DNA of 20,076 bases from Candidatus Bathyarchaeia archaeon (GCA_049512075.1 JBEKXL010000032.1:1-20076), one strand, 5' to 3'. Shown: positions 281 through 17,364, counted from the stretch's first letter. Notes: generated from the sequence alone by a model not told the origin. Made by a program: numbers and translations.

Positions 281-437
281 TCTTCAACGCTCCACTAAAT
301 ATATTTCTGATAGAAGCACTAAACCCTTTCTCCCAATATAAGTAGAGGACCATTAAGGTGACCCTGGAACTTCAATACAAATAGGGCATGTGCTGACATG
401 ACATACAAGGTCCACGCAGCTCCGCGCGCGCACGCGC

Positions 438-931
438 GTTTACGATTTTTCCATTTCTTTGGATGCGGACGGAAGGCCCAGGATAAGGGAGTTTGGTAAT
501 GTGCAAAAGTGTCACTACGGCCCGCGCGCGCTCAAATCTGGGAGCAAAGCGAACCGCTAGTGGATGTGTTAGATGAGGAAGAAGAGGTTGTGGTGGTGAC
601 CGAGCTTTCAGGCGTGGAAAAGGAGGACATAAGCCTTTACGCGTCCAAGGATGGACTTACTATCAGCGTGGACACCCCGCAACGAAAACATCAAAAGGAG
701 CTACCACTGCCAGAGGAAGTGGATCCTAAACCAGTGAAGGCCTCCTACAAAAATGGCGTCCTCGCGATACTATTCAAAAAGAAGAGCAAAGGAGAAAAGA
801 TCCGCATTCAGCAGCTGAACCGGGCTAGAAAAAATGCGTGTCCTCTCGCTTTTCGATCTCATGATTTCTCTCTCTATGTTAGCCATGAACATTTGAGAAA
901 TCCAAAGAAAGATAAATCTAGTACAGCTTAA
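438..931 (+). pseudogene. hsp20: Archaeal small heat-shock protein Hsp20, 5'-truncated and frameshifted
   Basis: Frame from 438 gives VYDFSISLDADGRPRIREFGNV (archaeal Hsp20 N-motif) with no in-frame start. The frame shifts in the (CG)n tract at ~523-531 into EPLVDVLDEEEEVVVVTELSGVEKEDI...ASYKNGVL (alpha-crystallin domain). The expected stop after GEKIRI is absent, adding a ~40-aa tail. Confidence 0.8.
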
Positions 932-953
932 ATGGAATAAGAGGTGATGGAAG

Positions 954-1082
954 ATGGGGAAAGTATATCGATGCCCAAATTGTAATAGAACAGAAATCAT
1001 ATGGGATGCAGGACTTAGAAAAGCTGTATGCCCAAAAGATAAAACACCGGTGAACAACTACAAAACGGAAAATAATGCTTGA
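954..1082 (+). CDS. Small Zn-ribbon-like protein (42 aa)
   Basis: RBS GAGGTGA at 941-947. MGKVYRCPNCNRTEIIWDAGLRKAVCPKDKTPVNNYKTENNA has CPxC and CPxD knuckles. Confidence 0.5.
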   Translation: MGKVYRCPNCNRTEIIWDAGLRKAVCPKDKTPVNNYKTENNA

Positions 1083-1272
1083 AAATATCTTTGACGTTCG
1101 CGCGCTAACCTTTTCCTCTAAATCTCTGTCTTGCTTGAAATAGATCTCACTTGGATATAATTTGTTGCATAATATAGAGCGCATTGTAGCCCATCTCTTG
1201 TTCAATATTGAAGCGTGCGTGCAAAGTTATGAACTAGGGCTTATAAGCTAAACTTGCGTCTTTTGTCGTTTT

Positions 1273-1413
1273 ATGGCTTTGCCGATAGCTAAGATCGACT
1301 TACATATTCACACTAGTTTCTCAGATGGAGCTTGCAGTGTCGATGAAGTCGTTAACTTAGTTTGTTGCCGATTTCCGTATACGTCTGTCTCGCATTTTCT
1401 TGAAGCAGACTAA
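1273..1413 (+). pseudogene. PHP-domain phosphoesterase N-terminal fragment
   Basis: MALPIAKIDLHIHTSFSDGACSVDEVVNL carries PHP motif I (DLHxHT.xSDG), then loses similarity and stops after 46 aa. Confidence 0.6.
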
Positions 1414-1468
1414 GAATTTTCCAATCCAACTCGTCTCGCGCGCGCCAGAGGGGAATACAAAACATGAT

Positions 1469-1612
1469 CTATGTGCCAATCTTCTTTAGTCTAGCAATCT
1501 TCTTCCTCTTTCTCTTCTCTTTCCTTTCCCTTTTCGTTAGAGGCTTAGGTCTCCCTTCAGCCTCCATAGCCCTCTTTTCTTTCTTTTCACCTTTCTTCTT
1601 CTTGCCCATCAT
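1469..1612 (-). CDS. Small Lys/Arg-rich protein (47 aa)
   Basis: GGGAGG-like RBS upstream. MMGKKKKGEKKEKRAMEAEGRPKPLTKRERKEKRKRKKIARLKKIGT. Confidence 0.5.
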   Translation of the reverse strand: MMGKKKKGEKKEKRAMEAEGRPKPLTKRERKEKRKRKKIARLKKIGT

Positions 1613-1666
1613 ATCGCCTCCCCATGATAATTGCGTGCGCTCTAAATCTTATTCCTCTCTTTTGTC

Positions 1667-1834
1667 TTATGGCGTCTCTTCTTCTGTTTCGAATTTTGTG
1701 GTCCGTGTGGCACTTACTAGGTGGGTTACGTAGCCAGCTATCATGTTTGTCAGTTTTGGGGAGGAGGTTTTGACGAGGCTTTTAGCAAGTTCTTTGTTTG
1801 TCCTCTTCACTCGCTCCGGCCGCACCTTACCCAA
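1667..1834 (-). pseudogene. rps17e: 30S ribosomal protein S17e homolog with in-frame internal deletion
   Basis: TTG start. MGKVRPERVKRT|NKELAKSLVKTSSPKLTNMIAGYVTHLV: the S17e N-motif (MGxVR..VKR) and C-motif (NK...N.IAGYVT) are joined without the usual central ~18 aa (A.EL.E.Y...FT.DFE). Confidence 0.8.
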
Positions 1835-2205
1835 GATTTAACGCCCCTTAACCCCCGCTCCTTTGCCTCCATCCACACATAGCGCGCTAGGGCGTTGCTT
1901 AAATCAGATTTTAATAGTTTTTATTCGGTTTCATGAGTAGTTGGCAGTTTTTGGTTGAACAATCTTCCCATCAGAAGCATCCAAACACACACCGAGAAAA
2001 AACCAACACATATTAAAATCCATTTTTGTCCGAATTTAGCAACAGCCTAGCGCGCGCAAACTTTACTCCTGCACGTTTCCTCAAAAGGAAAGAGAGGGGT
2101 TTCCAACGATTCAACCCTGTAGCAAACTGACAGGCACTAGTTGCATTTGTTGGATTGAACCTGGAAACCTATCCAAGACTGAAGGGTGCCTAAATAAAAG
2201 TGTTA

Positions 2206-2239
2206 GCGCGCGCCGGTACTGGTGCGTTAAGGGACATGA
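2206..2239 (+). repeat. Left TSD (2206-2214) + left TIR (2215-2239)
   Basis: GCGCGCGCC followed by GGTACTGGTGCGTTAAGGGACATGA. Confidence 0.93.
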
Positions 2240-2862
2240 ATGTCTTAAATATATCCAAAAAGATAACACACATATCAAGGGTGGATGTTGGAGAAACGTC
2301 AACCAGAAGTTTAAGGAAACGCTTGTCGCGGTATTACAGAAAGATGCGGAGAATAAAAATCACAAGACGTCATGGAGAAGCTTTAGCGAAGAATTATCTC
2401 GGTGTTCTTCTGTTCTTAGGAGAATTGTCCGTCGTTCTTTTGATGTTATTCTTACTCACATCGAATATCTTGGATTTGAAAACGGTTCTCTCGGTGTTGG
2501 TGCCTGACTTGTTCATAGCAATTTTTCTCTATTATCTTCTCGGTCAAGGACGTCGTGGTCAGGAAGAAGAAATATCTAACCTATTTGACGTTGCTGAGAA
2601 ATGTGCGCACTTAGTAGTTTACAAGTTCAGATTGCTTGAAGCGGATTTCTATTTTGTTGAAAACACAACTACCCAGGAATATTACAAAGCTCCAAAACAT
2701 ATCGCGCAAATGGCTGATCTTGGGGCTATTAGATTAGTCGAGTGCCAAAAAGGAGAGAAAGAAATGCGAGCAAAATTGCAGAACTCGCATGGAAATGAAG
2801 CAGAAGCCACAATCATTCAGCTTATGCCAAGGGAAAAGCCTATAAGTTACGATAGCTTTTAG
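2236..2862 (+). CDS. Passenger membrane protein (2 predicted TM helices + soluble C-terminal domain); start uncertain (2236, 2281 or 2344)
   Basis: Long ORF with hydrophobic stretches YLGVLLFLGELSVVLLMLFLLTS and VLSVLVPDLFIAIFLYYLL. The track start at 2200 lies outside the element, so the true start should be internal. Confidence 0.65.
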   Translation: MNVLNISKKITHISRVDVGETSTRSLRKRLSRYYRKMRRIKITRRHGEALAKNYLGVLLFLGELSVVLLMLFLLTSNILDLKTVLSVLVPDLFIAIFLYYLLGQGRRGQEEEISNLFDVAEKCAHLVVYKFRLLEADFYFVENTTTQEYYKAPKHIAQMADLGAIRLVECQKGEKEMRAKLQNSHGNEAEATIIQLMPREKPISYDSF

Positions 2863-2887
2863 GATATAGATAAGAGCGTGATAAGCT

Positions 2888-3772
2888 ATGAATTGCAAGT
2901 ATTGTGACTCTGAAAAAGTTGTGAAGAATGGCACGAAAGGCGATAGACAGAGATACCTCTGCAAAGATTGCGGTCACAAGTTTTTTGAAGGTTCAGAGTT
3001 TCCGAGAATGAGAACTGAGGCACGGATTATTTCTTCTAGCATTGACTTTTATTTTGAGGGTTTAAGCACTAGGAAGATTCAGACTCAGATTGAGAAACTG
3101 TACGGTGTTCATGTTGACCATTCGACAGTGCTAAGGTGGATTCTGAAATACTCTAACTTGGTCTCTCGATACGTCGAAACTTTAACGCCTCAGTTGTTGG
3201 GTATTTATCATGTTGACGAAACAGCGATCAAGTGTAAGGGTGTTCAAAAATGGTTCTGGGAAATTATTGACGATCAGACTAAATTCCTAGTTGCAGGTCA
3301 CCTTTCAGGTTTGAGAACCATTGAAGAGGCAGTAGCTCTTTTTGAGAAAAGCATGAAGGTAGCTAAAAAGAAGCCAACTTCAATCTACTGTGATGGGCTA
3401 AAACCATACGTGGACGCTTACAATCAAGTGTTCCGTACGATGAAAAAAGAAACAAGACCAGAATTAGTAAGAAGAGTTGGAATAAAAGCAATTCACAATC
3501 AGAACGTAGTTGAAAGACTTCATAGCACCCTTAAAGACAGAATAAAGCCGACAAGAGGTTTGAAAGGTGAAAAGACTGTTAGAACTTTGCTTGAAGGCTG
3601 GGTTGTCCACTACAACTATGTTCGGAAACATCAGACTTTGAAAATGACTCCTGCACAAGCCAGTGGATTAAACGTAAAGAATGACTGGTACACTCTTGTA
3701 AAGGATGCAACGAAGAATGAGGCGAAGAGAGAGGAAAAGCAAGTTCAGCAAATTGAGATGACTGTGAAATGA
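2888..3772 (+). CDS. DDE transposase, IS6 (IS240)-like catalytic domain with IS1-type N-terminal Zn ribbon and HTH
   Basis: CKYC...VKNG...QRYLCKDC Zn ribbon; GLSTRKI...VDHSTVLRWI HTH; catalytic motifs HVDET, CDG and NVVERLHSTLKDR. Frame intact. Confidence 0.95.
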   Translation: MNCKYCDSEKVVKNGTKGDRQRYLCKDCGHKFFEGSEFPRMRTEARIISSSIDFYFEGLSTRKIQTQIEKLYGVHVDHSTVLRWILKYSNLVSRYVETLTPQLLGIYHVDETAIKCKGVQKWFWEIIDDQTKFLVAGHLSGLRTIEEAVALFEKSMKVAKKKPTSIYCDGLKPYVDAYNQVFRTMKKETRPELVRRVGIKAIHNQNVVERLHSTLKDRIKPTRGLKGEKTVRTLLEGWVVHYNYVRKHQTLKMTPAQASGLNVKNDWYTLVKDATKNEAKREEKQVQQIEMTVK

Positions 3773-3924
3773 AAAAGATTCTAGTTAGCCTTCCAGAAGG
3801 CATATTCAAGACTGTCAGAGAATTGAAAGGACAGCTTGGGGACAGCGATTCTGAGGTTGTTCGCACTATGGTGATAAGCTTTCTAAGTGAAAAAGGATAT
3901 TTAAACAAGAAGGAAGAACCATGA
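3769..3924 (+). CDS. Ribbon-helix-helix (CopG-like) DNA-binding protein (51 aa)
   Basis: ATGA overlap with the transposase stop. MKKILVSLPEGIFKTVRELKGQLGDSDSEVVRTMVISFLSEKGYL fits the beta strand, helix, G.S.SEVVR helix pattern. Confidence 0.8.
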   Translation: MKKILVSLPEGIFKTVRELKGQLGDSDSEVVRTMVISFLSEKGYLNKKEEP

Positions 3925-4076
3925 GTGAAGCAAAGGTATGTCCCAAGTGTGGTGCCAATAAACTAATGAAAAGTGACACTTTTAGACTTGAAACGAAATG
4001 GCGAGTTAGTTGGATTGTTGTAACTTCCTATATCTGTGATAATTGTGGTTACGTTGAGCTGTACAAGGAGAAATAA
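3921..4076 (+). CDS. Small Zn-ribbon protein (51 aa)
   Basis: ATGA overlap with the RHH stop. MSEAKVCPKCG...SYICDNCGYVELYKEK (CPxCG...CxxCGYxExY). Confidence 0.75.
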   Translation: MSEAKVCPKCGANKLMKSDTFRLETKWRVSWIVVTSYICDNCGYVELYKEK

Positions 4077-4078
4077 GG

Positions 4079-4270
4079 ATGAGCAAAAGAAAGAAAGACC
4101 GCTTTAAAGAATTAGCTTTGGAACTTGACATGGTGGATCACATGATTGCTGCATTGGTGGATGTCTTAGAGAGAAAGGGTGTTTTGACTTCTGAGGAATG
4201 GGAAAAGGAAGTTAAGGCAAAAGTTGAAAATGCAGCTAAGACCACGAAAAGTTTTCGGGAGATTGAATGA
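4079..4270 (+). CDS. Small helical hypothetical protein (63 aa)
   Basis: Starts 2 nt after the previous stop. Amphipathic segment ALVDVLERKGVLTSEEWEKEVK. Confidence 0.72.
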   Translation: MSKRKKDRFKELALELDMVDHMIAALVDVLERKGVLTSEEWEKEVKAKVENAAKTTKSFREIE

Positions 4271-4482
4271 CTTTGGGAAGAAAGGATTTCCTTCGAAAAA
4301 TAGTAAAGAGCTTGCGGGGAACCACAAGAGAAACTGCGAAGACAAAACAAGAAATGAATCTTGATACTGTCGAAGCTCTCATTTTGAACCAGATTATTGA
4401 CAAGAAAGTTGAGGATGTTGACCAAGGGGGACTTGTTACAATAAAGAAAACTTCGGATGAGAAGTACTACTTAGAGGCATAG
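4267..4482 (+). CDS. Hypothetical protein (71 aa)
   Basis: ATGA overlap with the previous gene; last gene of the coupled run. Confidence 0.6.
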   Translation: MTLGRKDFLRKIVKSLRGTTRETAKTKQEMNLDTVEALILNQIIDKKVEDVDQGGLVTIKKTSDEKYYLEA

Positions 4483-4511
4483 TCTTGTCATCTGTCAGTT
4501 TTGGTAAGTTT

Positions 4512-4712
4512 TTACGACCACCATCGTTTTCTGTTCCAGCTCTCTTTCCTAACGACGAACTTGATGTTTGTGCCCTTGTAATTTTTGTTCATGCTGTTTG
4601 CTTTTTTCTGCGCTCGCTTCTTCAAACGAAAACGTTTTCCAGCAACAACTCTAACGGGCGTTCTGCCTTGCTTTCTGACAACAAGCCATCGAGATTTTTT
4701 TTGAGAACTCAA
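4512..4712 (-). CDS. Small basic hypothetical protein (66 aa)
   Basis: TTG-start ORF convergent on the cargo operon, very K/R-rich, fills the space up to the right TIR. Confidence 0.42.
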   Translation of the reverse strand: MSSQKKSRWLVVRKQGRTPVRVVAGKRFRLKKRAQKKANSMNKNYKGTNIKFVVRKESWNRKRWWS

Positions 4713-4757
4713 ACAAGACTCACAAAAGAAAAATTCTACGGTTTTTTACATCGGCTG

Positions 4758-4791
4758 TCATGTCCCTTAATGCACCAATACCGCGCGCGCC
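4758..4791 (-). repeat. Right TIR (4758-4782) + right TSD (4783-4791)
   Basis: TIR reverse complement is GGTATTGGTGCATTAAGGGACATGA; GCGCGCGCC follows on the + strand. Confidence 0.93.
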
Positions 4792-4871
4792 TCTTTCCCC
4801 CTACTTCGACCAGTTCCCTCCTTCAAAATGAGAATGAGCTGTCCCGTTTCCGTTGTTGTTAAATAAGTCAC
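4783..4871 (-). pseudogene. Thermosome (group II chaperonin) N-terminal fragment
   Basis: GGAGG RBS at 4881-4885, GTG start. MTYLTTTETGQLILILKEGTGRSRGKEA matches the thermosome N-terminus (GQP.LILKEGT.R.RG..A). Similarity ends at the GCGC target site and does not resume left of 2206. Confidence 0.75.
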
Positions 4872-5081
4872 GTAAAACTTCCTCCACTTCAATTAAGATC
4901 GAATCTGGTTTTGGATTAAATAAACGTGCCTATTCTACCGAAAGCGCTTTCTAAATTTCGACCCCGTTATTTCCTAGATTAGTCCCTTTAGTATTTTGCA
5001 AACAATTTCCAAAGCAGAAATGTATCAAAAGGTATCAACTCTTAAATTTTGCAATTTTAACTTCGTTCTGGAAGGCATAAA

Positions 5082-5361
5082 ATGTTTCAATATTTTGAGG
5101 CTGCAAGAGTTGGGAGTTGGCTTGGATGGATTTTCAATTTTGGTTTTGGGAGTGTTCTCTTTGGTGCGCTTCCTTTTGAGCGTACTGATGGTCTTCCCCC
5201 TTTCCATACTCATTCTCATGTGTTATGCGGATGTGTTAAAGAACCCGTCAAAAAATGTCATTAACACACAGAAAACTACGAGAAAGTATGGAATTATTGG
5301 GGTAACAATGCTATGGGCTTATGCACTACTCGCAAAAATAGCCAGCTTTTATAGGGCTTAG
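5082..5361 (+). pseudogene. Probable membrane-protein remnant (weak UbiA-prenyltransferase-like N- and C-terminal pieces in two frames)
   Basis: MFQYFEAARVGSWLGWIFNFGFGSVLFG in one frame and a hydrophobic C-terminal piece in another. Family assignment is speculative. Confidence 0.28.
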
Positions 5362-5617
5362 GACGCAAGTTTGAAAAGGCATATACGAGTTTTCTGCACT
5401 TAATTATAACCCATCACCTAAATGCGAAGTGAATGCTGTGTCTAAAACCGGAATCTAGGATAAGGGAGCCGCGCAAAAATATCCTTAGGCTGCTCTGTTG
5501 TTTAATCGCTTTATAAGGAAGTTTGCGTATTATAGGGCAGTAGCGTTTTGTTGTTGAAGGACGGAAGAACACAGCAGCATTGCACGTTACAATCAATGAT
5601 GAAAGGAGTGATGTAAA

Positions 5618-5905
5618 ATGGCGGAAAGATCGGGAATCGTTTTCATTGGAAGTAAAACACCAATGGACTATGTTCTAGCGATTATTACGAGCCTATCGAC
5701 GAGCAATGCTAAGGAAGTAGTCTTGAAAGCACGAGGACAAGCAATCACAACAGCTGTTGACGCAGCTGAAATAACCAGAGGCCGCTTCCTAAAAAACCTA
5801 AAAATAAGCAGAATCGCAATAGGGACAGAGGAGATGCCACCGAGAGAAGGCGAAAACAGATCACGGATGGTTTCAACAATTGAAATAACGCTTACAAAAG
5901 AGTAG
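5618..5905 (+). CDS. albA: DNA/RNA-binding protein Alba
   Basis: VFIGSKTPMDYVLA...LKARGQAITTAVDAAEI...IGTE...VSTIEITL; GGAGTGA RBS. Confidence 0.95.
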   Translation: MAERSGIVFIGSKTPMDYVLAIITSLSTSNAKEVVLKARGQAITTAVDAAEITRGRFLKNLKISRIAIGTEEMPPREGENRSRMVSTIEITLTKE

Positions 5906-6294
5906 GAAAACCTTGCGAAACACACGCGCTAAGTAAACATTAAGGCACCGCGGGTCTCTAAATGTTCCGAAAAATAGGTTTTTGACGATTTTTGTTTTCT
6001 CCCGATACCTTAGGCTTTAAGAACTCTAACAGAACCAAACGCCTTTTTACGAAGCGCAATATGACCCTATCGGGTTATGTCATTGCGAAGCACATTCAAC
6101 CTTCCAATTTTCTTTTGTTCTACGAATTGAAAGAAGTGTTTTAAAAACAGGTGAACAAGAACTTTTGAAAAGATTAGAAGAGATCGAAAAATGGGGGAAT
6201 GAGGGGCCTGTAGACTTGATGCCTTATGCCTTCTCCACCAACCTCGGCTTTACTTGCGGCTTTTTTTGCCTTTTTTGAGCCGTATTCGGTGTGC

Positions 6295-6465
6295 CTAAAT
6301 AATCTTCTTGCTTAGTACTTCTCGGAAGGGCTTCTTGCACTTTGGACAGTCGAAAAGGCCGATTTCTAACTGAGTTCTTTTTCCAGCTTTGGACGGGCGT
6401 CCAGCCATTGTCCACTTCTTCTTAGGCGATGAAACAACTGTTCCACATTTTTTACATTTTCCCAT
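6295..6465 (-). CDS. Cren7-like small chromatin protein with Zn-ribbon cysteines (56 aa)
   Basis: GGAGG RBS. MGKCKKCGTVVSSPKKKWTMAGRPSKAGKRTQLEIGLFDCPKCKKPFREVLSKKII shows the Cren7 pattern P.K.W....K....IGLF.....K.FR. Missed by the ORF track. Confidence 0.75.
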   Translation of the reverse strand: MGKCKKCGTVVSSPKKKWTMAGRPSKAGKRTQLEIGLFDCPKCKKPFREVLSKKII

Positions 6466-6607
6466 TTAATTTCCTCCAGTATATCTTGATAACCATCTGA
6501 TGGCGATAGATAAAACACTTTCCATCGTTTTCGGATACGAGCGCGTTCTACTTCACTACGATGAGGAATGTTCGACCGAAGGCGATAGGCGGTTAACGTA
6601 TGAAGTT

Positions 6608-7168
6608 TTATTCGTAGAATATGAGGTTTTGTTCCTCCAAGCTTCTGTGAAGCTTATGCACCGCGTCATAAACGTCCTGTTCCTTCTTCGCTCCGGTGCA
6701 AACAAGGTTCCCGCTTGCGAATATCAGTATGACCACCTTAGGCTCGTCCATCCTGTATATCAATCCTGGAAACTGCTCCGGCTCATACATGGTTTTTACA
6801 AGCGCGCCCACTGCCAGTTCCAACTCTATCCTTCCGCCTAAACTTGCGGAGGCAACAATGTTCACAACCTTCAAGTCCGGCTTGCTGATGATGATTATTC
6901 CACCCTTTTTCAACTCTTTAACAACTGTCATGACGGCCCTGCGGGATTCCTTCTCCGATTTTGCCCCCGTGCACACCATTTTGCCAGAATTGAAGATCAG
7001 CGTGGCTGTCTTCGGTCTCTTCAGCCTAAACACTAGTCCCGGGAACTGTTCCGGACGATACTCTACGCCTGGATAACTCTTCACGATAGCGTTTAAGTCA
7101 ACTTTCTGGTTTAAGGTTGCAGAAGCAACAACGTTTTGAATTTTTATTATGGCTTCAGTCTTCGGCAT
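6608..7168 (-). CDS. tbp: TATA-box-binding protein
   Basis: Two TBP repeats: NVVAS...YRPEQFPGL...LIFNSGKMVCTGAK and NIVAS...YEPEQFPGL...LIFASGNLVCTGAK. Confidence 0.98.
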   Translation of the reverse strand: MPKTEAIIKIQNVVASATLNQKVDLNAIVKSYPGVEYRPEQFPGLVFRLKRPKTATLIFNSGKMVCTGAKSEKESRRAVMTVVKELKKGGIIIISKPDLKVVNIVASASLGGRIELELAVGALVKTMYEPEQFPGLIYRMDEPKVVILIFASGNLVCTGAKKEQDVYDAVHKLHRSLEEQNLIFYE

Positions 7169-7284
7169 AAAACACCACTTCTTACAATGTGGCGGATGCT
7201 TAAATACCCTTTATAAAAGCCCTATGTTGCCAGCGTATGGAGGCTTCCCGCGCATCCCTTTTTTCTGTGAGCGCCGGTTGTAAT

Positions 7285-7434
7285 TTAATATTGCTCTCTC
7301 TTCCAAATATTATAAGGACATTGGGTCCGGCAGTAGCTGCCTCCCTTAAAAATACAGTTCCGGCATTCAGGCCGATCAAAAAACCTAGGCTTACCTACAA
7401 CCCTTCCACAGTACGGATATACCCGAAGCCTCAC
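7285..7434 (-). CDS. Possible small Cys-rich protein (49 aa)
   Basis: GTG start. MRLRVYPYCGRVVGKPRFFDRPECRNCIFKGGSYCRTQCPYNIWKREQY. Confidence 0.35.
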   Translation of the reverse strand: MRLRVYPYCGRVVGKPRFFDRPECRNCIFKGGSYCRTQCPYNIWKREQY

Positions 7435-7475
7435 TTTCAGTTTGCGGGTAGCGCTTTTCCAAGCTTGAGCGCGCT

Positions 7476-8570
7476 GCCTTGTCCCGAAATTATGTGTTGA
7501 AGTAGGTTGGTGATATTGCCTTGTCGGATCTTCCAGTGTTTTCGGCTGCTTCTCTGTTTAGAACCAGACACATGATGCTGTAGAGAGCGTAAGTAGCTAC
7601 GCTTTTGAGACCTCTAGCCTTGTTCATGATCAAGCCGTATTGAGTCTTCAAGAAGCTGTAGACAGCTTCTATCGTTGGTCTTTTGTGGTATTTCCTCTTC
7701 AGGTCTTCGGGTCCATAGATTCTGAATTTCTTATCCACTCTGAGCAGACCTTTAACGTTGCGCTTCTGGTTTGCAGGATACGGAATCACTGCTTCAACAG
7801 TTCTCCTGATTTTCTCGTCGTTGTATTGGCTGTCAGCTATTACGCGTTTGAGTTTGGCTCCTGCGTTGGAGAGGATTTGCCTTGTCTTCTCCAGCAGGGT
7901 CGGAGTGTGTCTCTTCTCGTTCTCGTTTGTTGGAGCCACAACGTTGGCCAGTGGGAGTCTGTTTTCAGAATCTATGGACAGGGGAAGCTTGTAGCCTAAG
8001 CCGAACGTTCTGCCTGCTCTTCCAACTCTTGCTTCTCCGTCAGAGAAGCCTGTTTGGCTGTCTTTGGGGTGGCGCGTGCTCCAAGCCTTTACGAAAGAAG
8101 CATCTAACACGGCGTCAACGTCTGAAGCGCTGCTTCTCTTCAAGAGCGCAACAACCTTATCCTCTATTATGCTTTCAAGCTTGTCTGCTCCTACCTTTCG
8201 GGCGAACCTGCTCAGAACAGACCGTGGATAACCCTTCTCGCCTTTCTTGAGCAGACAGATCTTTCTAAGCCTAACATCAACATCCAGCAACCTAGTCATC
8301 TCTCTTAGGCTGCGAACACCCTTCATGTGCATGACGATGAAAGCTCTGAAAAGCCCCACGGACTTCTAGGATGCCTACCCGGCCCAGCCGTGTGTAAGTA
8401 TCTGCATACTGCTTTCTCAGCAAAGCTTGAGTCGATGTTACAAAAGAGGGTTTCAAGGGTCTCGTGTTCATCTTGTCCAGCTAAAGGATTCACCTCCTAT
8501 GCTTGGGCGTAACACAAAATACGAGACTCCACTTCTCAAAATAAGGTTTCACTTAATTTAGGGACAAGCC
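7476..8570 (-). mobile_element. IS5/IS1182-like insertion sequence (1,095 bp)
   Basis: 21-bp imperfect TIRs: GCCTTGTCCCGAAATTATGTG (7476-7496) and GGCTTGTCCCTAAATTAAGTG (reverse complement of 8550-8570). 8-bp TSD AGCGCGCT at 7468-7475 and 8571-8578. Confidence 0.9.
7490..8471 (-). pseudogene. DDE_Tnp_1-clan transposase (DUF772-like N-terminus), frameshifted
   Basis: ATG 8471 frame MNTRPLKP...GPGRHPRSP shifts at ~8358 into GLFRAFIVM..SLRE..SVLSRF..DASF..GYKLP..ADSQY..RPTIE. GYKLP replaces the usual GYKLH. The stop codon lies inside the TIR. Confidence 0.85.
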
Positions 8571-8641
8571 AGCGCGCTTCGCAACACTTAAAGACTTAAA
8601 ATGAGCATTATCATCACAATGTGAAAGGAGGAAGACGCCCT

Positions 8642-9073: not shown

Positions 9074-9446
9074 CTATTTGCACTTTCTTTCATCATTCAT
9101 CTTTTTCAAGAGTTTGTCAAGGATTTTTCCTTTCATTCTCAATTCTTGTTCTGAAATCGTCTGTCCCATTGGTCATAATTCATCAACCACGGCACCCTCA
9201 TTTACTAGTAACACAACAGGATAAAAGATAGCATCCCACGGGTCCTTTTTCATAGACTCAGCATTTCCTATCAGCGAGACTGTAGAAGTGGCACTATCCC
9301 TCAACGTTTCTGAGCCGAGTCACACCATCATCCATAACTGCAAATTCTTCTAGACGATGACCCGCTTCCACTAGTCTTTTGATGCCCTCACTTGAAAGCT
9401 CCATCTCCGTTTTTTCACAGCACTTTCCACAATTTGAACAACGCAC
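9074..9446 (-). pseudogene. YkgJ-family (CxxCxxCC) cysteine-cluster protein, inactivated
   Basis: CSNCGKCC...RLRNVEG*CHFY..RKC*VYEKGPVGCYL|YPVV...VDEL*PMG. Stops at 9294, 9258 and 9173, plus a frameshift in the run at 9223-9226. Confidence 0.8.
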
Positions 9447-9502
9447 GAAAGGCGGACTCCCTTTACATGCCATAACAAAAGACAGCCGAGCTACAGTTGT
9501 TT

Positions 9503-9529
9503 TGGTAGCCCGGCAGAGATTCGAACTCT
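9503..9529 (-). other. Orphan tRNA 3' fragment (T-arm + acceptor + CCA; tRNA-Gln-like), possible att scar
   Basis: AGAG-TTCGAAT-CTCT-G-CCGGGCT-A-CCA, with no complementary AGCCCGG 5' strand upstream on that strand. Confidence 0.6.
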
Positions 9530-9619
9530 CGCCAAGTATGCTGTGGCCATGTTTTGCTGGTAAATACTCGCTACAGTAGATTGCGGGTGCTTGCACCCAA
9601 ATGGGTTCAAGCCCTGTGA

Positions 9620-9694
9620 TGGGGCTGCCCGGATTTGAACCGGGGTCTAGAGAGCCCAAGTCTCCAAGCCTAGACCAAACTAGCCGACAGCCCC
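9620..9694 (-). tRNA. tRNA-Pro(TGG)
   Basis: Acceptor GGGGCTG/CAGCCCC, anticodon arm GGAGA-CTTGGGC-TCTCT, T-arm CCCGG-TTCAAAT-CCGGG. Confidence 0.95.
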
Positions 9695-9966
9695 TTCAAC
9701 TGGGTCTGGAGTCCCTATCGATGATAATGCATCAGTCATAAAAACCTTAACCAGGCCTAGGATGCACACGTAAAGCAAATCGAAAAGCTATTTGACACAG
9801 ACTTACTGAACTGGTAGACTGGCTAAAAAGCACGCTCTCCATAAGCTCGCAAGCAGGGATAAGACCGTTTACAATCTGGATATTAGGAGTAGCCATGCGA
9901 GCAAACTGTTGCGTGGCGTGTGCTAGATTTCGCTTTCACCGATTACCGTGTTGTCTATGACCTTAA

Positions 9967-10296
9967 TCATCTAGTAGCCAAAATTTGATTGAAGTCTTCA
10001 CTTTTTGGGTTAAGGTCGGTGGCAACCAAATGCCAATGATCGTTTATCGTAGCAAACGTGGTGTCCATAATCACAAATTTGGGGGTGTAACTGAAAACTT
10101 CTTTTCCAATGTTGGTAAGTATGTCCAAGGCATGCTCATATGCCCTCTGAGGCACTGTGTGCTCATGTCTTTTGAAAATTATCATTATACGTTCTCTGTG
10201 TTCCTTCTCAGTCTTGGTTCTTAGGACGATAAACGACCTGTCTTCGTAATACTTTTTCTCCTTTTCCAGATCCAGATCACACAAAGGGCAACTCAA
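9967..10296 (-). CDS. HIT-like protein (possibly frameshifted near the C-terminus)
   Basis: TTG start MSCPLCDL...YYED..FIVL...HWHLV: N-terminal CxxC and a degenerate histidine triad. A one-base restoration at ~9968 would extend it to 9923. Confidence 0.55.
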   Translation of the reverse strand: MSCPLCDLDLEKEKKYYEDRSFIVLRTKTEKEHRERIMIIFKRHEHTVPQRAYEHALDILTNIGKEVFSYTPKFVIMDTTFATINDHWHLVATDLNPKSEDFNQILATR

Positions 10297-11197: not shown

Positions 11198-13505
11198 TCA
11201 GTCGCTTTGATAGTTTTCCTTTCCCTTTTCGTTTGTCTTGGGTATTGTAATAGTGAACTGAGCTCCTCTGCCCGGTTCACTAGTTTCTTGTATTGTCCAG
11301 CCGTAGACTTCCATCATCTTTTTGATCAAGTAGAGTCCGTATCCGGTGCCTTTTCCGTACCCTTCTTTGAAAAGGTTCGGCTTTTCGGCTCAGGGTATGC
11401 CGATACCGTCATCTTGGTAGAATAATTTCAGCTGTTTATCAATAGACTTTTCACAGTACACTCGGATCTGGGTGATTTTTTCACCGTATTTCAACGAGTT
11501 GTCTATCATGTTGTAGAAGAGCCGTTCTAAGAGCGAATCTGCCAAGACCTTTAGCCCTTGGCACTCATTCGATACTTTCACACCTTTTAAGTCAGAGAAT
11601 AGCGAGACCACTTTTTCAAAGGTTTCGCCCAAGTCAACATTCTTGAGTTCCTCATCGCCGAGCATCTCGTAGCTATGCGCAAAATCAAATATCTTTAGAA
11701 TTTGCTGACAAGCAAAATCAATGTCGTGAAGATATTCCCAAACCACCGGATTATCAGGCAGCCTTCTCTTGGCTAAGAAAATGCTCCCTGTGACTATGGA
11801 AAGCTTGTTTCGTACATCATGCCTAGTTAGGCTGCCAACTACGCGCAGTTTTTAGATCATTGTCGCCAGTTTTTGCATCATCTCCTTCATGGCTGCTTCT
11901 GTTCTCTTCAATTCAGAAATGTCCTTGTACATAGCCATGTGACCTACAAGTCTTCCTTCGACGATGATTGGAGCAGCCGAGACCGACACGGGGATGAGTG
12001 AGCCGTCTTTCCTCTTCCTGGCAGTGTCAAAATACACGTAGCCCCTTGCTGCGCTCTGGTCCAGTGTATGTCCTTCTTCTGTTCTCTCAGGTGGCACTAC
12101 AACGTCGTTGATGTCTTTGCCTTTGATTTCTTCGAGTGGATAACCGAAAAGCTCGAAGAAGCGTGGGTTCATGTCTAGTATGTGGAAGTCTTGAGACAAG
12201 TAGACGGTCGCTTCAGGGTTTCCAATAAATAATCCTTCGAACTTCTGTTTGTTCTCCCTGATTTCTTTCTCAGCCTTCTTGTCTTCAGTAACGTCTCGAA
12301 AACTCCACACTCTTCCGGCAGCTGCCCTTCCTATCCTCTGAGGACGAGAATACCGCTCGAAGACTCTTCCGTCTTTGAATTCTAGCAAGTCGTAGCTCTC
12401 TGCGTCGGGCTGATCGTAGAGTTCTCTGACTTTTGCCAGAAACTTCTCAGTCTCTTTCAGCTGGTCTAGAACATATGCCAGCGCCTGATCATCGTCTCGT
12501 GTGGCCATAATTTCGTCTGGAATACGCCACATTTCAGCGAACTTTCGATTGAAAATCGCTATCTTTCCATCTTTATTTACTACTAGGATGCCGTCGGCAG
12601 TAGATTCAAGCGTGGCACTGAGCAGAGAAAGAGTGTTCTTCGCTTCCTCCTCCGCACGTTTCAGGGCCTCCCATGCCTGTTTCTGCCCAGTAACGTCACG
12701 TGTGACAATCGTTAGAAAAGTCTCGCCTTTCATTTTCCACGTTGAAAGAGAGGCTTCTAAGGGGGAACTCTTTGCCGTCTCTTTTCAATCCAACCATTTC
12801 GAAAGTCTTTTCGAAAGGAGGCGGCGGCGATGAAAGCCATCCACCCAATTTTCTTTGGTGATTGTCCCTGAACCGTTCAGGCATAATCAACGTTACTGGC
12901 TTACCAATCATTTCGTTGGCTGAATAGCCGAAAATGGTTTCAGCCACTCTGTTCCAGAAGACTATCCTTCCTTGAGTATCAATGGAGATAGTTGCATCAC
13001 CAGCAGACTCGCTTATGGCTCGAAACTTCTCTTCGCTGTCCCGCAAGGCTTCTTCTGCTTCTCTAATCTTAGCTGGTTTCGTTATACTATGAGCTAGCTC
13101 GCAGTAGACTATTTCAGGGTCACCCGTCTTGCTCAGATACTGATCTGCCCCCAGATTCAACGCTTCTTTTGCGACTTCTTCTCTGCCTTTTCCGGTGAAG
13201 ATAATGAACGGTATGTTTTCGCCCTTTTCTCTGAGTTCTTTCAGAAAAGTTAAGCCATCCTTATCAGGCATGAAGTAGTCAGAAACTATCACATCAAATT
13301 TCTCTTCCTTCATCTTCTGAAAGGCTTCTTGGACGGATAATGCGGTTTCAACCTGAAATGATCCTTCCGTCTGTAACGCGCGCTTTGCTAGCTTCAAGAG
13401 GCTAGCGTCGTCATCCACGTGTAGAACCCTAATTGGCTTCGCTCTTTGATCTAGGCCGATCACGGCTTCTGTTTGCGGCTCAACCGTGGATCTGATCACA
13501 CGCAC
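11198..13505 (-). pseudogene. Hybrid sensor kinase (REC-PAS-PAS-PAS-HisKA-HATPase), disrupted
   Basis: REC domain (VDDD, SDY.MP), three PAS domains, H-box TRHDVRNKL, N-box NMIDNS, G-boxes DDGIGI and GTGYGL. Lesions: frameshift in the G5 run at 12761-12765, in-frame TAA at 11852, in-frame TGA at 11390. Confidence 0.88.
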
Positions 13506-13955: not shown

Positions 13956-14062
13956 GCATTTCGCTCAGCGTTCGCTCAACTTGCCCTTAACCAAGATTTG
14001 ATTCCTACAACGGATAATAAGGTTGTGAATTAGACACTGTTCAAATGGGCAGTAACTTGAAA

Positions 14063-15384: not shown

Positions 15385-15396
15385 TTTTGGTGGATT

Positions 15397-15594
15397 TTAT
15401 CGCTTTAGAGTTTCTTCGAACTTTAGACACGTTAGTGCGGCTATCCCCCTGCCTATGGTTGAGATCAAATAGACGACTTGCGGTCCTGCAACCAAGCTGA
15501 ACAGAGTTGTCATAGAATCCGATATTTGCCATCCAATGAGTGAACCAAGAAGAGTCACGATGCCTACGATTTGTTGAATACGCGCACGCTTCAC
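15397..15594 (-). CDS. Possible small membrane protein
   Basis: Two hydrophobic stretches; no recognisable family. Confidence 0.3.
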   Translation of the reverse strand: MKRARIQQIVGIVTLLGSLIGWQISDSMTTLFSLVAGPQVVYLISTIGRGIAALTCLKFEETLKR

Positions 15595-15690
15595 GTTGAG
15601 TTTTGGAGTTTTCCAGAGAAAATTTATATTTGGGGGAGATTGCTTTTATTTCGCTCTCACTTCTCAAATCAGATTCTTGGGCGATAACCT

Positions 15691-15999
15691 TTAGCGGGAT
15701 CGTTTCCTTGTTCCGCCGAGTTTTCTCTTGTTCTTCTTTGCCACTATCACCGTGTGCGATTGTTCCTTTTGCCGGATTTGAGCGTTTGGAAAGACTCCCT
15801 CGATTTCTCTTCGCAACCGCGCAAGGTCAACCTGTCCATAAGTCTTAATGTCAACCAAGGGCCTTTCATTCTCATCATAACTGACTGCCAATGTGTACCC
15901 TGAACCGAGCTCAATCTGTGTCGGTTCTAGAAGAATGCCTGCATCTTCGTCTAACTCGGCGATGTCTTCAGATCCACGTTTGTGTTTGCGTTCAGCCAT
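15691..15999 (-). CDS. Hypothetical protein (102 aa)
   Basis: AGGAG RBS, protein-like composition, basic C-terminal tail. Confidence 0.65.
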   Translation of the reverse strand: MAERKHKRGSEDIAELDEDAGILLEPTQIELGSGYTLAVSYDENERPLVDIKTYGQVDLARLRREIEGVFPNAQIRQKEQSHTVIVAKKNKRKLGGTRKRSR

Positions 16000-16151
16000 A
16001 CCTTGATTACTCCTTTCTAAAACGACGAGAACACGGGATTAAAGGCTTGCTAAGCTTGAATAAGGATTGAAAGTCCAAGAAGCACCGCGCACTGCGTTTG
16101 TCTGGAGACCTAACCTTCAACGTTAGAAACGAAAGCCAATCAAATGTCTAT

Positions 16152-16718
16152 TCAACGACCCGCCTTGTTGTCCATTAAATAGTTCAGAATTGTTATGCAC
16201 GAAGCTGCCAGGTAAGGCTGTTTTCCAAGACTGATCTTTTCAGCGTAGCGCAGGGCAAAGTTTTCGACGGTCTTCGGCAGACCAATATGGTCGCCAAGAA
16301 CGAACACAGCGTTTTCACCTAATTCAATCTCAGAGATGTTTCTCCCCTTTTCTTCAAGAACGTAAATAGCCGTTCGAGAAGCTTTAGCCTTGATTTTCAG
16401 CAGGGCTTCGAAGCTCGTTTTGTCCGCTGTTATGCCCGGATGAGTCTGGCCTCCCAAAACCTTTCTCAAGATTCTCTCCCACGTTTGCTGATCCGTGCGG
16501 ACATCATGAAGTGTTGCCCCTTCTATTCTTAGACGCAGCGGCGGTGTTGGCGGGCCGCTCAATAGAGCATTGAAAACGACGTTTTTTCGGATGGCGTGAG
16601 AGAGAAACAGGCTTGCAACCACACACTCGTACACTATGTCCAATCTGCCCGCGTCGTGCAGGTTTGCAAAGCTCGAATCGGTTCTTCCTAAACGTGAATA
16701 GAGAACAAACTCCCGCAT
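16152..16718 (-). CDS. trmY: tRNA (pseudouridine54-N1)-methyltransferase (SPOUT)
   Basis: MREF...GRLDI..C..ASLFLSHAIR...FVLGDHIG...ISLG...YLAASCITILNY. Confidence 0.88.
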   Translation of the reverse strand: MREFVLYSRLGRTDSSFANLHDAGRLDIVYECVVASLFLSHAIRKNVVFNALLSGPPTPPLRLRIEGATLHDVRTDQQTWERILRKVLGGQTHPGITADKTSFEALLKIKAKASRTAIYVLEEKGRNISEIELGENAVFVLGDHIGLPKTVENFALRYAEKISLGKQPYLAASCITILNYLMDNKAGR

Positions 16719-16996
16719 CACAGGTCACAACCCGGATTCTTCCATTAACTCCCCAGCGCCCAGTGCCGTCTAAGTCGCGACGTACTCTATTCTCCTTCCT
16801 ATTTATGCCGCGCGTGCTAATAACAACTCCCCTCCCAAATCTCCCCCAACTAGAATTTCTAGCGCGCATCTTCAACCGTTTGAGCCTCGAAAAAATTGCG
16901 GATCAAGCAGTCAAAAGCAAGGGTTTGGTTCTCAGCATGAGCCACGGAAGCCAACGTCTGGCAGCATTGCACGAAGCAAACATAGCTCTCGAGAAG

Positions 16997-17069
16997 AGCC
17001 TCGGGCGGGAATTGAACCCGCGACCTACAGCTTACAAGGCTGTTGCTCTACCGACTGAGCTATCGAGGC
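16997..17069 (-). tRNA. tRNA-Thr(TGT)
   Basis: Acceptor GCCTCGA/CCGAGGC (A7:C66 mismatch), anticodon arm ACAGC-CTTGTAA-GCTGT, T-arm GCGGG-TTCAATT-CCCGC. Confidence 0.93.
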
Positions 17070-17364
17070 ATCACTGTTTTCATTCCTATTTTGATTATTG
17101 AGGCTTGATTTAAGGTTAGCGTGCGCTCCATTCAGTTGATATGATGTTCCTTCCGCAGCGCGCGCTCCACATGATGACTGCGCGCACATCGACTTCTATG
17201 GCAATGGCCAGTGCGCGCGCATTGATTATCGCGTCGCATCATCAAAAACAAAAACGCCAGAGCAAAAAAATCTCATTGAAGGCTCTTATCACATACGACG
17301 TAATCCTTATATGTGCGAAACCTGCTTCTGGAATAGTTTGGCTAGTTACTTGAAGCCATAAAAG

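What the first reader, a model, noticed from the sequence alone, without database searches (positions are those of the whole stretch)
423..17220. Intergenic (GC)n tracts act as a shared landing pad for two unrelated transposon families
Seen: alternating CG tracts of 8 nt or more at 423-430, 523-531, 1437-1445, 2050-2057, 2206-2213 (duplicated at 4783-4790), 17158-17165 and 17213-17220. Shorter ones lie at 1099, 1882, 7469/8572, 16862 and 17180. Nearly all are outside intact CDS. A rough estimate at ~45% GC predicts well under one 8-mer per 20 kb. Both TSDs in the window (GCGCGCGCC, AGCGCGCT) are such tracts, although the transposases belong to different families. Inference: the tracts may be a genome-wide cis-element (chromatin-protein site, Z-DNA-prone or bendable DNA) that steers transposition away from genes, or scars of repeated insertion and excision.
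Basis: partly seen in the sequence, partly recalled or inferred. Interest (0 to 1): 0.75.

Follow-up and report, generated by a model that had tools for sequence, protein, structure and literature searches.

The report
Abundant GC palindrome marks DNA joints
A short GCGCGCGC palindrome lies by the hundred between the genes of this uncultured archaeon and some of its relatives, and mobile elements and rearrangements begin and end at it, much as at bacterial REP repeats.

Summary
The window has 8 GCGCGCGC against 0.09 expected. The genome, a Bathyarchaeia-like assembly of 2.7 Mb, has 646 sites against about 28-45 expected, and this is its most over-represented 8-mer. Tracts are 8-10 nt long (575 of them; only 6 are longer), with consensus A(GC)4-5T. 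Between 83% and 90% lie between genes, which make up 20% of the genome. All 5 genomes of the genus share the excess, and so do 20 of 201 sampled genomes of the class.

The landing-pad idea is partly supported. A metagenome contig shows the empty IS6 site with one intact GCGCGCGCC. The other element belongs to an IS5/IS1182-like clade that abuts (GC)3 or longer tracts at 31 of 36 ends in 10 genomes. A 266-bp repeat family also ends at tracts. Of 49 ends of segments shared recently with a sister species, 23 lie at a tract, against 1-4 in controls. Other IS6-like copies ignore tracts.

These elements are too few to explain about 580 tracts. Slippage and scars are not supported, and a C5-methylase is not supported either. 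What makes or keeps the tracts is unresolved.

The parts
423..431 (.). CGCGCGCGC tract, followed at 433-438 by CGCGCG; between the CDC48-N gene fragment and the Hsp20 gene
   Evidence: conserved in G004. In G002 a tract at this place joins directly to window 862, so the Hsp20 gene is missing there.
523..531 (.). CGCGCGCGC tract upstream of the Hsp20 domain
1099..1105 (.). CGCGCGC tract after a small zinc-ribbon ORF
   Evidence: one metagenome contig joins 1096 to 9400
1211..1304 (.). 94-bp segment inverted relative to G004, bounded by degenerate tracts (GCGTGCGTGC type). Window 1305-1665, which holds the tract at 1437-1445, is missing in G004.
   Evidence: opposite-strand joints in runs X2, X5 and X7
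1437..1445 (.). CGCGCGCGC tract inside the segment that G004 lacks
1882..1887 (.). GCGCGC tract
2050..2057 (.). GCGCGCGC tract
2206..2214 (.). GCGCGCGCC, left copy of the target duplication of the IS6 element. Homology with G004 and G001 ends here.
   Evidence: empty site in a contig of run X6 (joint 2205 to 4783, 9 letters shared)
2215..4782 (+). IS6-family element, 2568 bp, with 25-26 nt terminal inverted repeats, transposase at 2888-3772 and several extra small ORFs
   Evidence: NCBIfam IS6, 131 bits, cut-off 125
4783..4791 (.). GCGCGCGCC, right copy of the target duplication
7469..7474 (.). GCGCGC on the left of the IS5/IS1182-like element. In G004 this place carries (GC)5 joined straight to window 9593.
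7476..8570 (-). IS5/IS1182-like element (DDE_Tnp_1 plus DUF772), inverted repeats G[C/G]CTTGTCCC. The transposase ORF 7490-8359 lacks about 50 N-terminal residues and reads through 2 TAG when extended, so this copy is probably inactive.
8572..8577 (.). GCGCGC on the right of the IS5/IS1182-like element
16809..16867 (.). CGCGCG (16809-16814) and GCGCGC (16862-16867) upstream of an RNA methyltransferase gene
17158..17220 (.). Three tracts (17158-17165, 17180-17185, 17213-17220) between a tRNA gene and the 23S rRNA gene
4956..6533 (+). Segment holding a hypothetical gene and an Alba gene, 97% identical to G004 although the core genomes are about 84% alike. In G004 a (GC)5 tract lies directly before it.

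Best explanation
The tracts belong to a family of about 580 short palindromes, A(GC)4-5T, spread almost evenly over the intergenic DNA of this Bathyarchaeia-like genome. They act as preferred joints for incoming and rearranging DNA. One clade of IS5/IS1182-like DDE transposons is a dedicated recogniser. It always lies between two (GC)3 or longer runs, most simply because it cuts inside the palindrome and duplicates its GCGCGC core. A 6-bp duplication with element tips T...A fits the copies checked by eye. An 8-bp AGCGCGCT duplication fits the window copy. Other elements use the same sites less strictly: one IS6 event, a 266-bp MITE-like family, and anonymous gene-carrying segments. The tracts are also strong self-complementary microhomologies, so deletions, inversions and segment swaps end at them. 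Shown here: the abundance, the intergenic location, the discrete length, tracts at element ends, one empty site, and tracts at homology breakpoints. Inferred: the cutting geometry, the role of microhomology, and the safe-harbour benefit. Unknown: what created about 580 tracts and what keeps them.
For: Abundance: 646 sites against 28-45 expected under Markov orders 0-3, and the top 8-mer by z-score. In intergenic DNA there are 548 sites against 6, 24 and 109 expected under orders 1, 2 and 3.
Location: 246 of 284, 155 of 186 and 95 of 105 tracts of 8, 9 and 10 nt are intergenic, against 20% of the genome. Of 581 tracts, 476 lie outside any ORF of 150 codons or more.
Discrete length: counts for 8, 9, 10 and 11 nt are 284, 186, 105 and 3, while the five other alternating dinucleotide pairs decay geometrically.
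IS5/IS1182-like ends at tracts: 10 of 11, 13 of 14 and 31 of 36. The last set includes tract-poor genomes such as G222 and G171. A subgroup only 37-39% identical also has CG runs at the ends of its copies.
Tract without the element: G004 has the same left flank plus (GC)5 and no IS.
IS6 empty site: a contig of run X6 skips 2577 bases with 9 shared letters.
MITE-like family: full and truncated copies end at tracts.
Within the genome: 515 of 4049 repeat ends abut a tract, against 83-164 in shifted controls.
Between species: 23 of 49 ends of segments at least 90% identical abut a tract (controls 1-4), and 70 of 313 ends of core matches do (controls 10-15).
In four metagenome runs, by my reading 6 of the 12 listed joints have a tract on at least one side.
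Against: The specific IS clade is low in copy number, with 1-2 full copies per genus genome. It was found in only 5 of the 20 tract-rich genomes, against 20 of 181 others. It therefore cannot have made the tracts. Other IS6-like copies do not use tracts. Some insertions are unrelated to tracts, such as an 850-bp insert with 19-bp direct repeats (case C). Tracts are spread over intergenic regions nearly at random: 86 regions hold two or more, against 75 +/- 6 expected. Neighbouring 9-nt tracts are direct repeats in only 17 of 25 pairs, so duplication in place adds little. Several breakpoints carry a tract in one genome only, or 10-20 nt from the junction. The tract could be part of the IS inverted repeat rather than its target, because a palindrome cannot tell the two apart. 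No empty site of the IS5/IS1182-like element itself was seen.
Confidence: 0.55

Rival explanations
1. The tract is a host element comparable to cyanobacterial HIP1. It would be a palindrome kept by selection as a binding site for a dimeric protein or for chromosome organisation. Mobile elements would merely exploit or tolerate it, and the breakpoint association would be a side effect.
For: Density is uniform at about 1 per kb in convergent, divergent and tandem intergenic regions and across region lengths. The unit is a discrete 10-bp palindrome, A(GC)4T, the commonest form at 115 copies. The abundance is not explained by IS copy numbers, and 15 of the 20 tract-rich genomes lack the IS clade. 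No substitution or indel inside a tract appears among the listed differences in four metagenome runs over window 1-10000, though 108 and 3 rows were not shown. The trait recurs in 7 families of the class.
Against: Positional conservation is poor. Of 25 syntenic gaps with a tract of 8 nt or more in G000, G004 has one in 7, a 6-7 nt tract in 5, and none in 13. One-mismatch decay products are common: transition variants at 2.46 times and transversion variants at 1.62 times expectation. No C5-methylase was found in 5 of 5 genus genomes, and no Vsr in G000. The one strong N4/N6 methylase does not track tract-rich genomes, occurring in 3 of 20. No binding protein has been identified.
Confidence: 0.2
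2. The tracts belong to the mobile elements themselves. They would be the outer tips of inverted repeats of the IS5/IS1182-like and MITE-like elements, and solo tracts would be what remains after the element interior is lost. This is the scar model.
For: Homology among 7 copies in G121 runs through GCGCGC and even the next TA. Where the flanks are not palindromic they are mirror images rather than direct repeats (L031; C39). A new tract stands at places where the sister genome has none. Truncated MITE copies end in a tract at internal positions.
Against: The empty IS6 site and the IS-free G004 site both carry the tract. Most tracts sit in unique sequence: only 203 of 1161 flanks have another copy in the genome, and no second motif is enriched beside them. 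The dominant (GC)4-5 is longer than the (GC)3 next to most IS copies. Doubled tracts of 12 nt or more are nearly absent. Element copy numbers are far too low.
Confidence: 0.15
3. The tracts are a mutational by-product, from dinucleotide slippage or from biased mismatch repair linked to a methylase.
For: One-mismatch variants are also over-represented. HIP1 has been discussed in relation to methyltransferases (PMC4390886, search listing and term search only).
Against: The length distribution has a second mode at 8-10 nt and a sharp stop, unlike the other five alternating pairs. No length polymorphism appears among the listed indels. No PF00145 match above cut-off in 5 of 5 genus genomes, and no Vsr in G000.
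Confidence: 0.05

Closest known systems
REP (repetitive extragenic palindromic) sequences as insertion targets for IS elements of several families (Tobes and Pareja 2006, PMC1525189; abstract read)
   Same: Both are numerous intergenic palindromes that act as hot spots for specific insertion by some transposases and as sites of genome plasticity. In both cases a subset of 'recogniser' transposases shows high target selectivity.
   Different: REPs are bacterial and, from recall, 20-40 nt imperfect palindromes that form stem-loops and are spread by RAYT (Y1) transposases. Here the unit is a perfect 8-10 nt alternating GC run with no loop, the host is an archaeon, and Y1 transposases were not found in 2 of the 5 genus genomes. 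The recogniser here is a DDE_Tnp_1 element. Most REP-specific ISs that I recall belong to the IS110 or IS3 families.
HIP1 (GCGATCGC), the highly iterated palindrome of cyanobacteria (Xu et al. 2018, PMC5861425, abstract read; Elhai 2015, PMC4390886, search listing and term search)
   Same: Both are octamer palindromes over-represented by one to two orders of magnitude, lineage-restricted and patchy, with no settled function.
   Different: HIP1 sites are conserved within and between ORFs and are linked to orphan methylases, according to the abstracts. The GC tract is 83-90% intergenic, poorly conserved in position, and no C5-methylase was found. Its link to transposon ends and homology breakpoints has no counterpart in the HIP1 abstracts I read.
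Alternating G-C runs as Z-DNA-prone patterns in prokaryotic genomes (Huang and Mrazek 2014, PMC4060949; abstract, passages and section 3.6 read)
   Same: It is the same sequence class, which that survey calls GC6 and GC8.
   Different: [quoted passage not shown] Section 3.6 treats the broader purine-pyrimidine patterns and names exceptions (two Treponema species, Helicobacter felis and bizzozeronii, Thermofilum pendens). Here the pattern is the most over-represented 8-mer. From recall, 8-10 bp is short for a B-to-Z transition at natural supercoiling; this was not tested.
Integron attC sites and gene cassettes (recalled, not tested)
   Same: Short palindromic sites bound small, promoter-poor gene segments that differ between close genomes. 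Here the segments carry Hsp20, Alba, TBP and TRAM genes.
   Different: There is no array, no integron integrase next to the sites and no attI. The multi-copy tyrosine recombinase family of this genome does not track tract-rich genomes.

Membership tests
IS6 family (element 2215-4782) | Transposase matches the curated IS6 model above its cut-off | tested here: met
   NF033587 at 131 bits, cut-off 125; Pfam DDE_Tnp_IS240, 5.4e-20
IS6 family (element 2215-4782) | Short terminal inverted repeats and a target duplication of about 8 bp (figure recalled) | tested here: met
   Inverted repeats of 26 nt at 92%. The empty-site contig shares 9 letters, which fits 8 or 9 bp.
IS6 family (element 2215-4782) | Compact element of about 0.7-0.9 kb with a single ORF (recalled) | tested here: not met
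   The element is 2568 bp and carries a 220-aa ORF of no known family and several small ORFs beside the transposase.
IS5 or IS1182 family (element 7476-8570) | Transposase reaches a curated family cut-off | tested here: not met
   Using the full-length C39 copy, IS1182 scores 85.8 (cut-off 270) and IS5_4 scores 69.2 (cut-off 140). Only the broad Pfam domains DDE_Tnp_1 and DUF772 are met. I therefore file it as 'IS5/IS1182-like', an unclassified clade.
REP elements | Numerous, intergenic and palindromic | tested here: met
REP elements | Imperfect palindrome of 20-40 nt able to form a stem-loop (recalled) | tested here: not met
   The unit is 8-10 nt, and in G000 nothing is conserved beyond one flanking base. 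Only some sites in G121 extend to a 22-nt palindrome.
REP elements | Accompanied by a RAYT (Y1 transposase) gene | tested here: not met
   PF01797 was found in 3 of the 5 genus genomes and not in G003 (93% complete, 253 sites) or G004 (97% complete, 447 sites).
HIP1-type iterated palindrome | Octamer palindrome over-represented at least 15-fold | tested here: met
   646 sites against 28-45 expected genome-wide; 23- to 89-fold in intergenic DNA under orders 2 and 1
HIP1-type iterated palindrome | Present and conserved inside ORFs as well as between them | tested here: not met
   83-90% of tracts are intergenic. Only 7 of 25 syntenic gaps keep a tract of 8 nt or more in G004.
HIP1-type iterated palindrome | Cognate orphan DNA methylases | tested here: inconclusive
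   No PF00145 match above cut-off in 5 of 5 genus genomes. N4/N6 methylase matches exist at about six places. The strongest does not track tract-rich genomes. Specificities are unknown.
Dinucleotide microsatellite | Geometric length distribution and length variation between strains | tested here: not met
   There is a second mode at 8-10 nt and a stop above 10. No indel is listed in the tracts in four runs.
Z-DNA-forming element | Adopts the left-handed form in vivo or binds a Z-alpha protein | not testable with these tools
   The PF02295 search rang in no control genome, so it is uninformative.

The most novel reading that the evidence does not exclude
The A(GC)4-5T tracts are the crossover sites of an unidentified recombination or cut-and-join system. 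It would move any tract-bounded segment, including small single-gene cassettes (Hsp20, Alba, TBP, TRAM), within and between Bathyarchaeia species. That would be a dispersed, array-free analogue of integron cassette exchange, and the IS5/IS1182-like clade would have learned to ride on it. Four observations fit. Segments 90-98% identical sit in genomes whose cores are about 84% alike. Nearly half of their ends lie at a tract. Pieces of 29-52 bp are framed by tracts in G002. The trait is patchy across 7 families.
Probability: 0.15. Interest if true: 0.85.

Novelty: new variant of a known kind. Interest (0 to 1): 0.62.

Why it matters
Bathyarchaeia are abundant, uncultured sediment and peat archaea, and nothing is known about how their genomes rearrange or exchange genes. 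A single 8-10 bp palindrome that marks where DNA enters, leaves and flips would give a simple, searchable handle on that plasticity. It would also be an archaeal counterpart to bacterial REP and cyanobacterial HIP1 elements, and a natural transposase with a short, defined target. The open HIP-type question becomes testable here: why does a lineage fill its genome with one palindrome? The trait is present in about 1 in 10 sampled genomes of the class and absent from close relatives, so phylogenetic profiling could find the responsible gene.

Tried and rejected
1. Promoter or terminator role. Tract density is similar in convergent, tandem and divergent intergenic regions (1.02, 0.99 and 0.73 per kb). 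Rejected.
2. C5-methylase with Vsr-type biased repair. PF00145 gave no match above cut-off in G000-G004 (one sub-threshold match of 19.4 bits in G002). PF03852 gave no match in G000.
3. Z-alpha protein. The search rang in no control genome, so it says nothing.
4. RAYT-type spread. Y1 transposases occur in 3 of 5 genus genomes only.
5. A 13-member zinc-ribbon tyrosine recombinase family as the tract enzyme. Its genes are not consistently next to tracts. It occurs in 26 of 31 relatives, including tract-poor ones.
6. The N4/N6 methylase on contig C53. It occurs in 37 of 201 class genomes but in only 3 of the 20 tract-rich ones. It is 100% identical to a gene in a genome of another family, so it may be contamination or a recent transfer.
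7. Tracts as ends of one big repeat family. Only 203 of 1161 flanks have a second copy, and no companion motif is enriched.
8. Assembly artefact. Tracts are not enriched at contig ends (0.27 against 0.21 per kb).
9. The MITE-like repeat as a known RNA. No Rfam match at E of 1 or less, and folding z-score 0.46.
10. An empty site of the IS5/IS1182-like element. None is among the listed joints of four runs.
11. Literature. Three searches found nothing on such a tract in archaea or Bathyarchaeia: 'GCGCGCGC + intergenic + archaea' gave 0 papers; 'Bathyarchae + palindrom + intergenic' gave 7 unrelated papers; 'over-represented/palindrome/archaeal genomes/GCGCGC' gave no relevant paper beyond PMC4060949. 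The library lacks most subscription journals.
12. The search of earlier findings was not open.
13. Exact duplication length of the IS5/IS1182-like element. Readings of 6, 7 and 8 bp each fit some copies and none is proven.


Full report
WHAT THE WINDOW IS. The window is a whole 20,076-base contig (C32) of a 2.73-Mb, 86-contig assembly with 47.5% G+C. It is archaeal. It carries a CDC48 N-domain fragment, Hsp20, Alba, TBP, a TRAM protein, a PAS/response-regulator cluster, a ThiL-like gene, three tRNA genes and the first 2.5 kb of a 23S rRNA gene. Relatives of one of its transposases lie on contigs titled Candidatus Bathyarchaeota or Bathyarchaeia, so I call the organism Bathyarchaeia-like.

THE OBSERVATION.
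- GCGCGCGC occurs 8 times against 0.09 expected from dinucleotide-preserving shuffles. GCGCGC occurs 24 times against 3.05 expected.
- All eight tracts of 8 nt or more lie outside Pfam-supported genes. Only two short tracts, at 6802 and 13377, lie inside genes.
- Both mobile elements are real and unrelated. One is an IS6-family element (2215-4782, 26-nt inverted repeats; NCBIfam IS6 at 131 bits, cut-off 125). The other is a DDE_Tnp_1/DUF772 element (about 7476-8570) that reaches no curated IS family cut-off.

GENOME-WIDE PICTURE.
- GCGCGCGC is the most over-represented 8-mer of the genome: 646 sites against about 28-45 expected under Markov orders 0-3.
- Maximal alternating C/G runs number 8834, 2105, 669, 195, 284, 186, 105, 3, 2 and 1 for lengths 4 to 13. 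This gives a second mode at 8-10 nt and a sharp stop.
- The other five alternating pairs (AT, AC, GT, AG, CT) decay geometrically. The tract is therefore a unit of defined size and not a slippage product.
- The commonest forms are A(GC)4T (115) and A(GC)5T (50). Apart from A before and T after (about 65% each), nothing within 15 nt is conserved, and no companion word is enriched within 60 nt.
- With my own crude gene calls (2570 genes, 79.6% coding), 246 of 284, 155 of 186 and 95 of 105 tracts of 8, 9 and 10 nt are intergenic. Without gene calls, 476 of 581 lie outside every ORF of 150 codons or more, and such ORFs cover 77% of the genome.
- In intergenic DNA there are 548 sites against 6, 24 and 109 expected under orders 1, 2 and 3.
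- Density is about 1 per kb in convergent, tandem and divergent intergenic regions alike, and in all length classes from 50 to 800 bp. The number of regions holding two or more tracts (86) is close to random placement (75 +/- 6). This argues against a promoter or terminator role and against strong pairing.

WHO HAS IT.
- All five species-level genomes of the genus have 168-646 GCGCGCGC sites. Most other genera of the family have 0-30.
- In an even sample of 201 genomes of the class, AGCGCGCGCT occurs at least 10 times, with the reversed control at 5 or fewer, in 20 genomes of 7 families. The highest count is 131. Two families are mostly positive (counted by eye).
- The trait is therefore patchy and recurrent, not a peculiarity of one assembly.
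- A published survey reports that Z-DNA-promoting patterns, which include alternating G-C runs, are generally suppressed in prokaryotes (PMC4060949, abstract; section 3.6, read in full, treats the broader purine-pyrimidine patterns). My three literature searches found no description of this tract in archaea.

TRACTS AND MOBILE ELEMENTS.
(a) IS6 element. A contig of public run X6 joins window 2205 to 4783 and skips 2577 bases, with 9 letters fitting either side. This is the empty site with one intact GCGCGCGCC. The tract was therefore there first and was duplicated. However, another full IS6-like copy with 52-nt inverted repeats, and solo matches to the window's inverted repeat at C3:163932 and C1:369238, do not abut tracts. 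Tract use is thus not a family rule.

(b) IS5/IS1182-like clade.
- In this genome 10 of 11 termini abut an intact run of 6 nt or more, and the eleventh abuts a decayed one.
- In ten loci from other Bathyarchaeia assemblies (44-96% protein identity), 13 of 14 termini abut a run directly and one has it 4 nt away.
- In 22 copies from 10 genomes, 31 of 36 determinable termini abut a run. These include genomes that have no A(GC)4T at all, such as G222 and G171. Three copies of a subgroup only 37-39% identical, shown in the same call, also have CG runs at their ends.
- Whether the run is target or tip cannot be read from a palindrome. Against 'tip', G004 has the same left flank followed by (GC)5 and no element.
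- For a central cut, one G121 copy is flanked by the two halves of a perfect 22-nt palindrome, TTCGGATA-GCGCGC-TATCCGAA. A 6-bp GCGCGC duplication fits the copies I checked by eye. This remains an inference.

(c) MITE-like repeat. A repeat of about 266 bp ends at tracts on both sides in its full-length copies. Its truncated copies also end at tracts, at several different internal positions.

TRACTS AND HOMOLOGY BREAKPOINTS.
- Within the genome, 515 of 4049 ends of repeated segments abut a tract of 6 nt or more, against 83-164 when the ends are shifted by 30-200 bp.
- Against 518 kb of the sister species G004, the core is about 82-88% identical, but about 19 kb is 90-98% identical.
- Of the 49 ends of these recent segments, 23 abut a tract in at least one genome, against 1-4 in shifted controls. 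Of 313 ends of core matches, 70 do, against 10-15 in controls.
- By my own arithmetic, purely intergenic positions would give about 4-5 of 49.
- Examples from the window follow.
  - Homology with G004 stops exactly at 2213, and homology with G001 within two bases of it (matches end at 2211). G001 joins that tract straight to 5435.
  - G004 and three metagenome runs join 7474 through extra GC letters to about 9593-9596.
  - G002 has a 29-bp piece (window 380-408) framed by two tracts and then window 862, so it lacks the Hsp20 gene. G002 also has a 52-bp piece and a 40-bp IS end, each framed by tracts.
  - G002:C1 has a tract at window position 336, where the window has none.
  - A 94-bp inversion is bounded by decayed tracts.
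- Often the tract is present in only one of the two genomes, or lies 10-20 nt from the junction. Some insertions have nothing to do with tracts (case C).

TURNOVER.
- Of 25 syntenic gaps in which G000 has a tract of 8 nt or more, G004 has one in 7, a 6-7 nt run in 5, and none in 13.
- One-mismatch variants are over-represented: 2.46-fold for transitions and 1.62-fold for transversions. This fits decay of perfect units.
- Among strains 93-100% alike, no listed substitution or indel falls in a tract of window 1-10000, though some rows were not shown.

WHAT IT IS NOT.
- It is not a product of slippage.
- It is not a doubled-duplication scar, because runs of 12 nt or more are nearly absent.
- It is not a promoter or terminator element.
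- It is not an assembly artefact.
- Candidate makers were tested and none fits:
  - C5-methylase;
  - Vsr;
  - Y1/RAYT transposase;
  - a 13-copy tyrosine recombinase family;
  - one N4/N6 methylase.
- The specific IS clade is too rare, at 1-2 full copies per genus genome, and is missing from 15 of the 20 tract-rich genomes sampled. It cannot be the source.

READING. The best-supported statement is that A(GC)4-5T is a lineage-specific, hyper-abundant intergenic palindrome at which DNA is preferentially joined. It is the obligatory site of one transposon clade, an occasional site for others, and a frequent end-point of deletions, inversions and recently exchanged segments. Staggered insertion re-creates the tract on both sides. 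An 8-10 bp G+C palindrome is also an ideal microhomology in either orientation. These two points are inference. The origin and upkeep of about 580 sites remain open. A host function in the manner of HIP1, or an unidentified enzyme that uses the tract as its crossover site, are the live alternatives.

COMPARISON WITH KNOWN SYSTEMS. In behaviour the tract is closest to bacterial REP elements as IS targets (PMC1525189, abstract). In statistics it is closest to HIP1 (PMC5861425, abstract). It fails defining features of both: it has no stem-loop unit, no consistent RAYT, no presence inside genes, poor positional conservation and no linked methylase. I therefore rate it a new variant of a known kind. 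It is well documented as a pattern, but its mechanism is unresolved.

Noticed in passing
window 6608-7168 and 5618-5905; G000 genome-wide: TBP and Alba are multi-copy. A TBP family of 8 members appears in my clustering, and there is a 6-member family whose representative I did not scan but took to be Alba-like. The window's TBP and Alba regions hit many places in each sister genome at 75-97% DNA identity. These small genes lie in the variable, tract-rich segments.
   Followed up: partly
G000 contigs C10:65117-66445, C4:115932-117158, C1:295899-299292 and others: A 13-member family of proteins of about 440 aa combines an N-terminal zinc ribbon with a tyrosine recombinase (Phage_integrase) domain. 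It has up to 16 matches per genome and was found in 26 of 31 relatives. It may be a tyrosine-recombinase mobile element typical of this order.
   Followed up: partly
G000:C3:152464-152729 (L068:465-730) and about 20 further copies: A MITE-like repeat of about 266 bp has no inverted termini and contains repeated TGTAATGT words, which are themselves among the most over-represented 8-mers. It has no Rfam match and no unusual fold.
   Followed up: partly
G000:C53:9-878 (L089): An N4/N6 DNA methylase on a 2.3-kb contig is 100% identical in protein to one in G137, a genome of another family of the class. This suggests either contamination of the assembly or very recent transfer.
   Followed up: no
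window 2200-4482: The IS6 element is three times the usual size. It carries a 220-aa ORF of no known family and several small ORFs, one with a weak FeoC-like wHTH match. A short stretch of this passenger region (about 4160-4203) is laid at high depth in other contexts in metagenome contigs of runs X2 and X7.
   Followed up: no
window 11390-13505: A sensor kinase appears to be in pieces. ORFs carrying HATPase_c, PAS and receiver-plus-PAS domains follow each other on the minus strand with overlaps, which suggests frameshifts or a split gene.
   Followed up: no
window 17503-20076 and 16997-17069: The 23S rRNA gene is preceded by a tRNA gene on the opposite strand, and no 16S gene lies in the 17 kb upstream. 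The rRNA genes therefore seem unlinked.
   Followed up: no
G000:C1:23269-24112: An insert of about 850 bp, absent from G004, is flanked by 19-bp near-identical direct repeats (ACCTATTAA.CT.AATG). It looks like an integrase-type insertion unrelated to the tracts (case C).
   Followed up: no
G018 (same family, another genus): GCGCGCGC occurs 227 times, and the reversed control 209 times. Several runs reach (GC)5-6. This is a related but longer-tract variant that I did not analyse.
   Followed up: no
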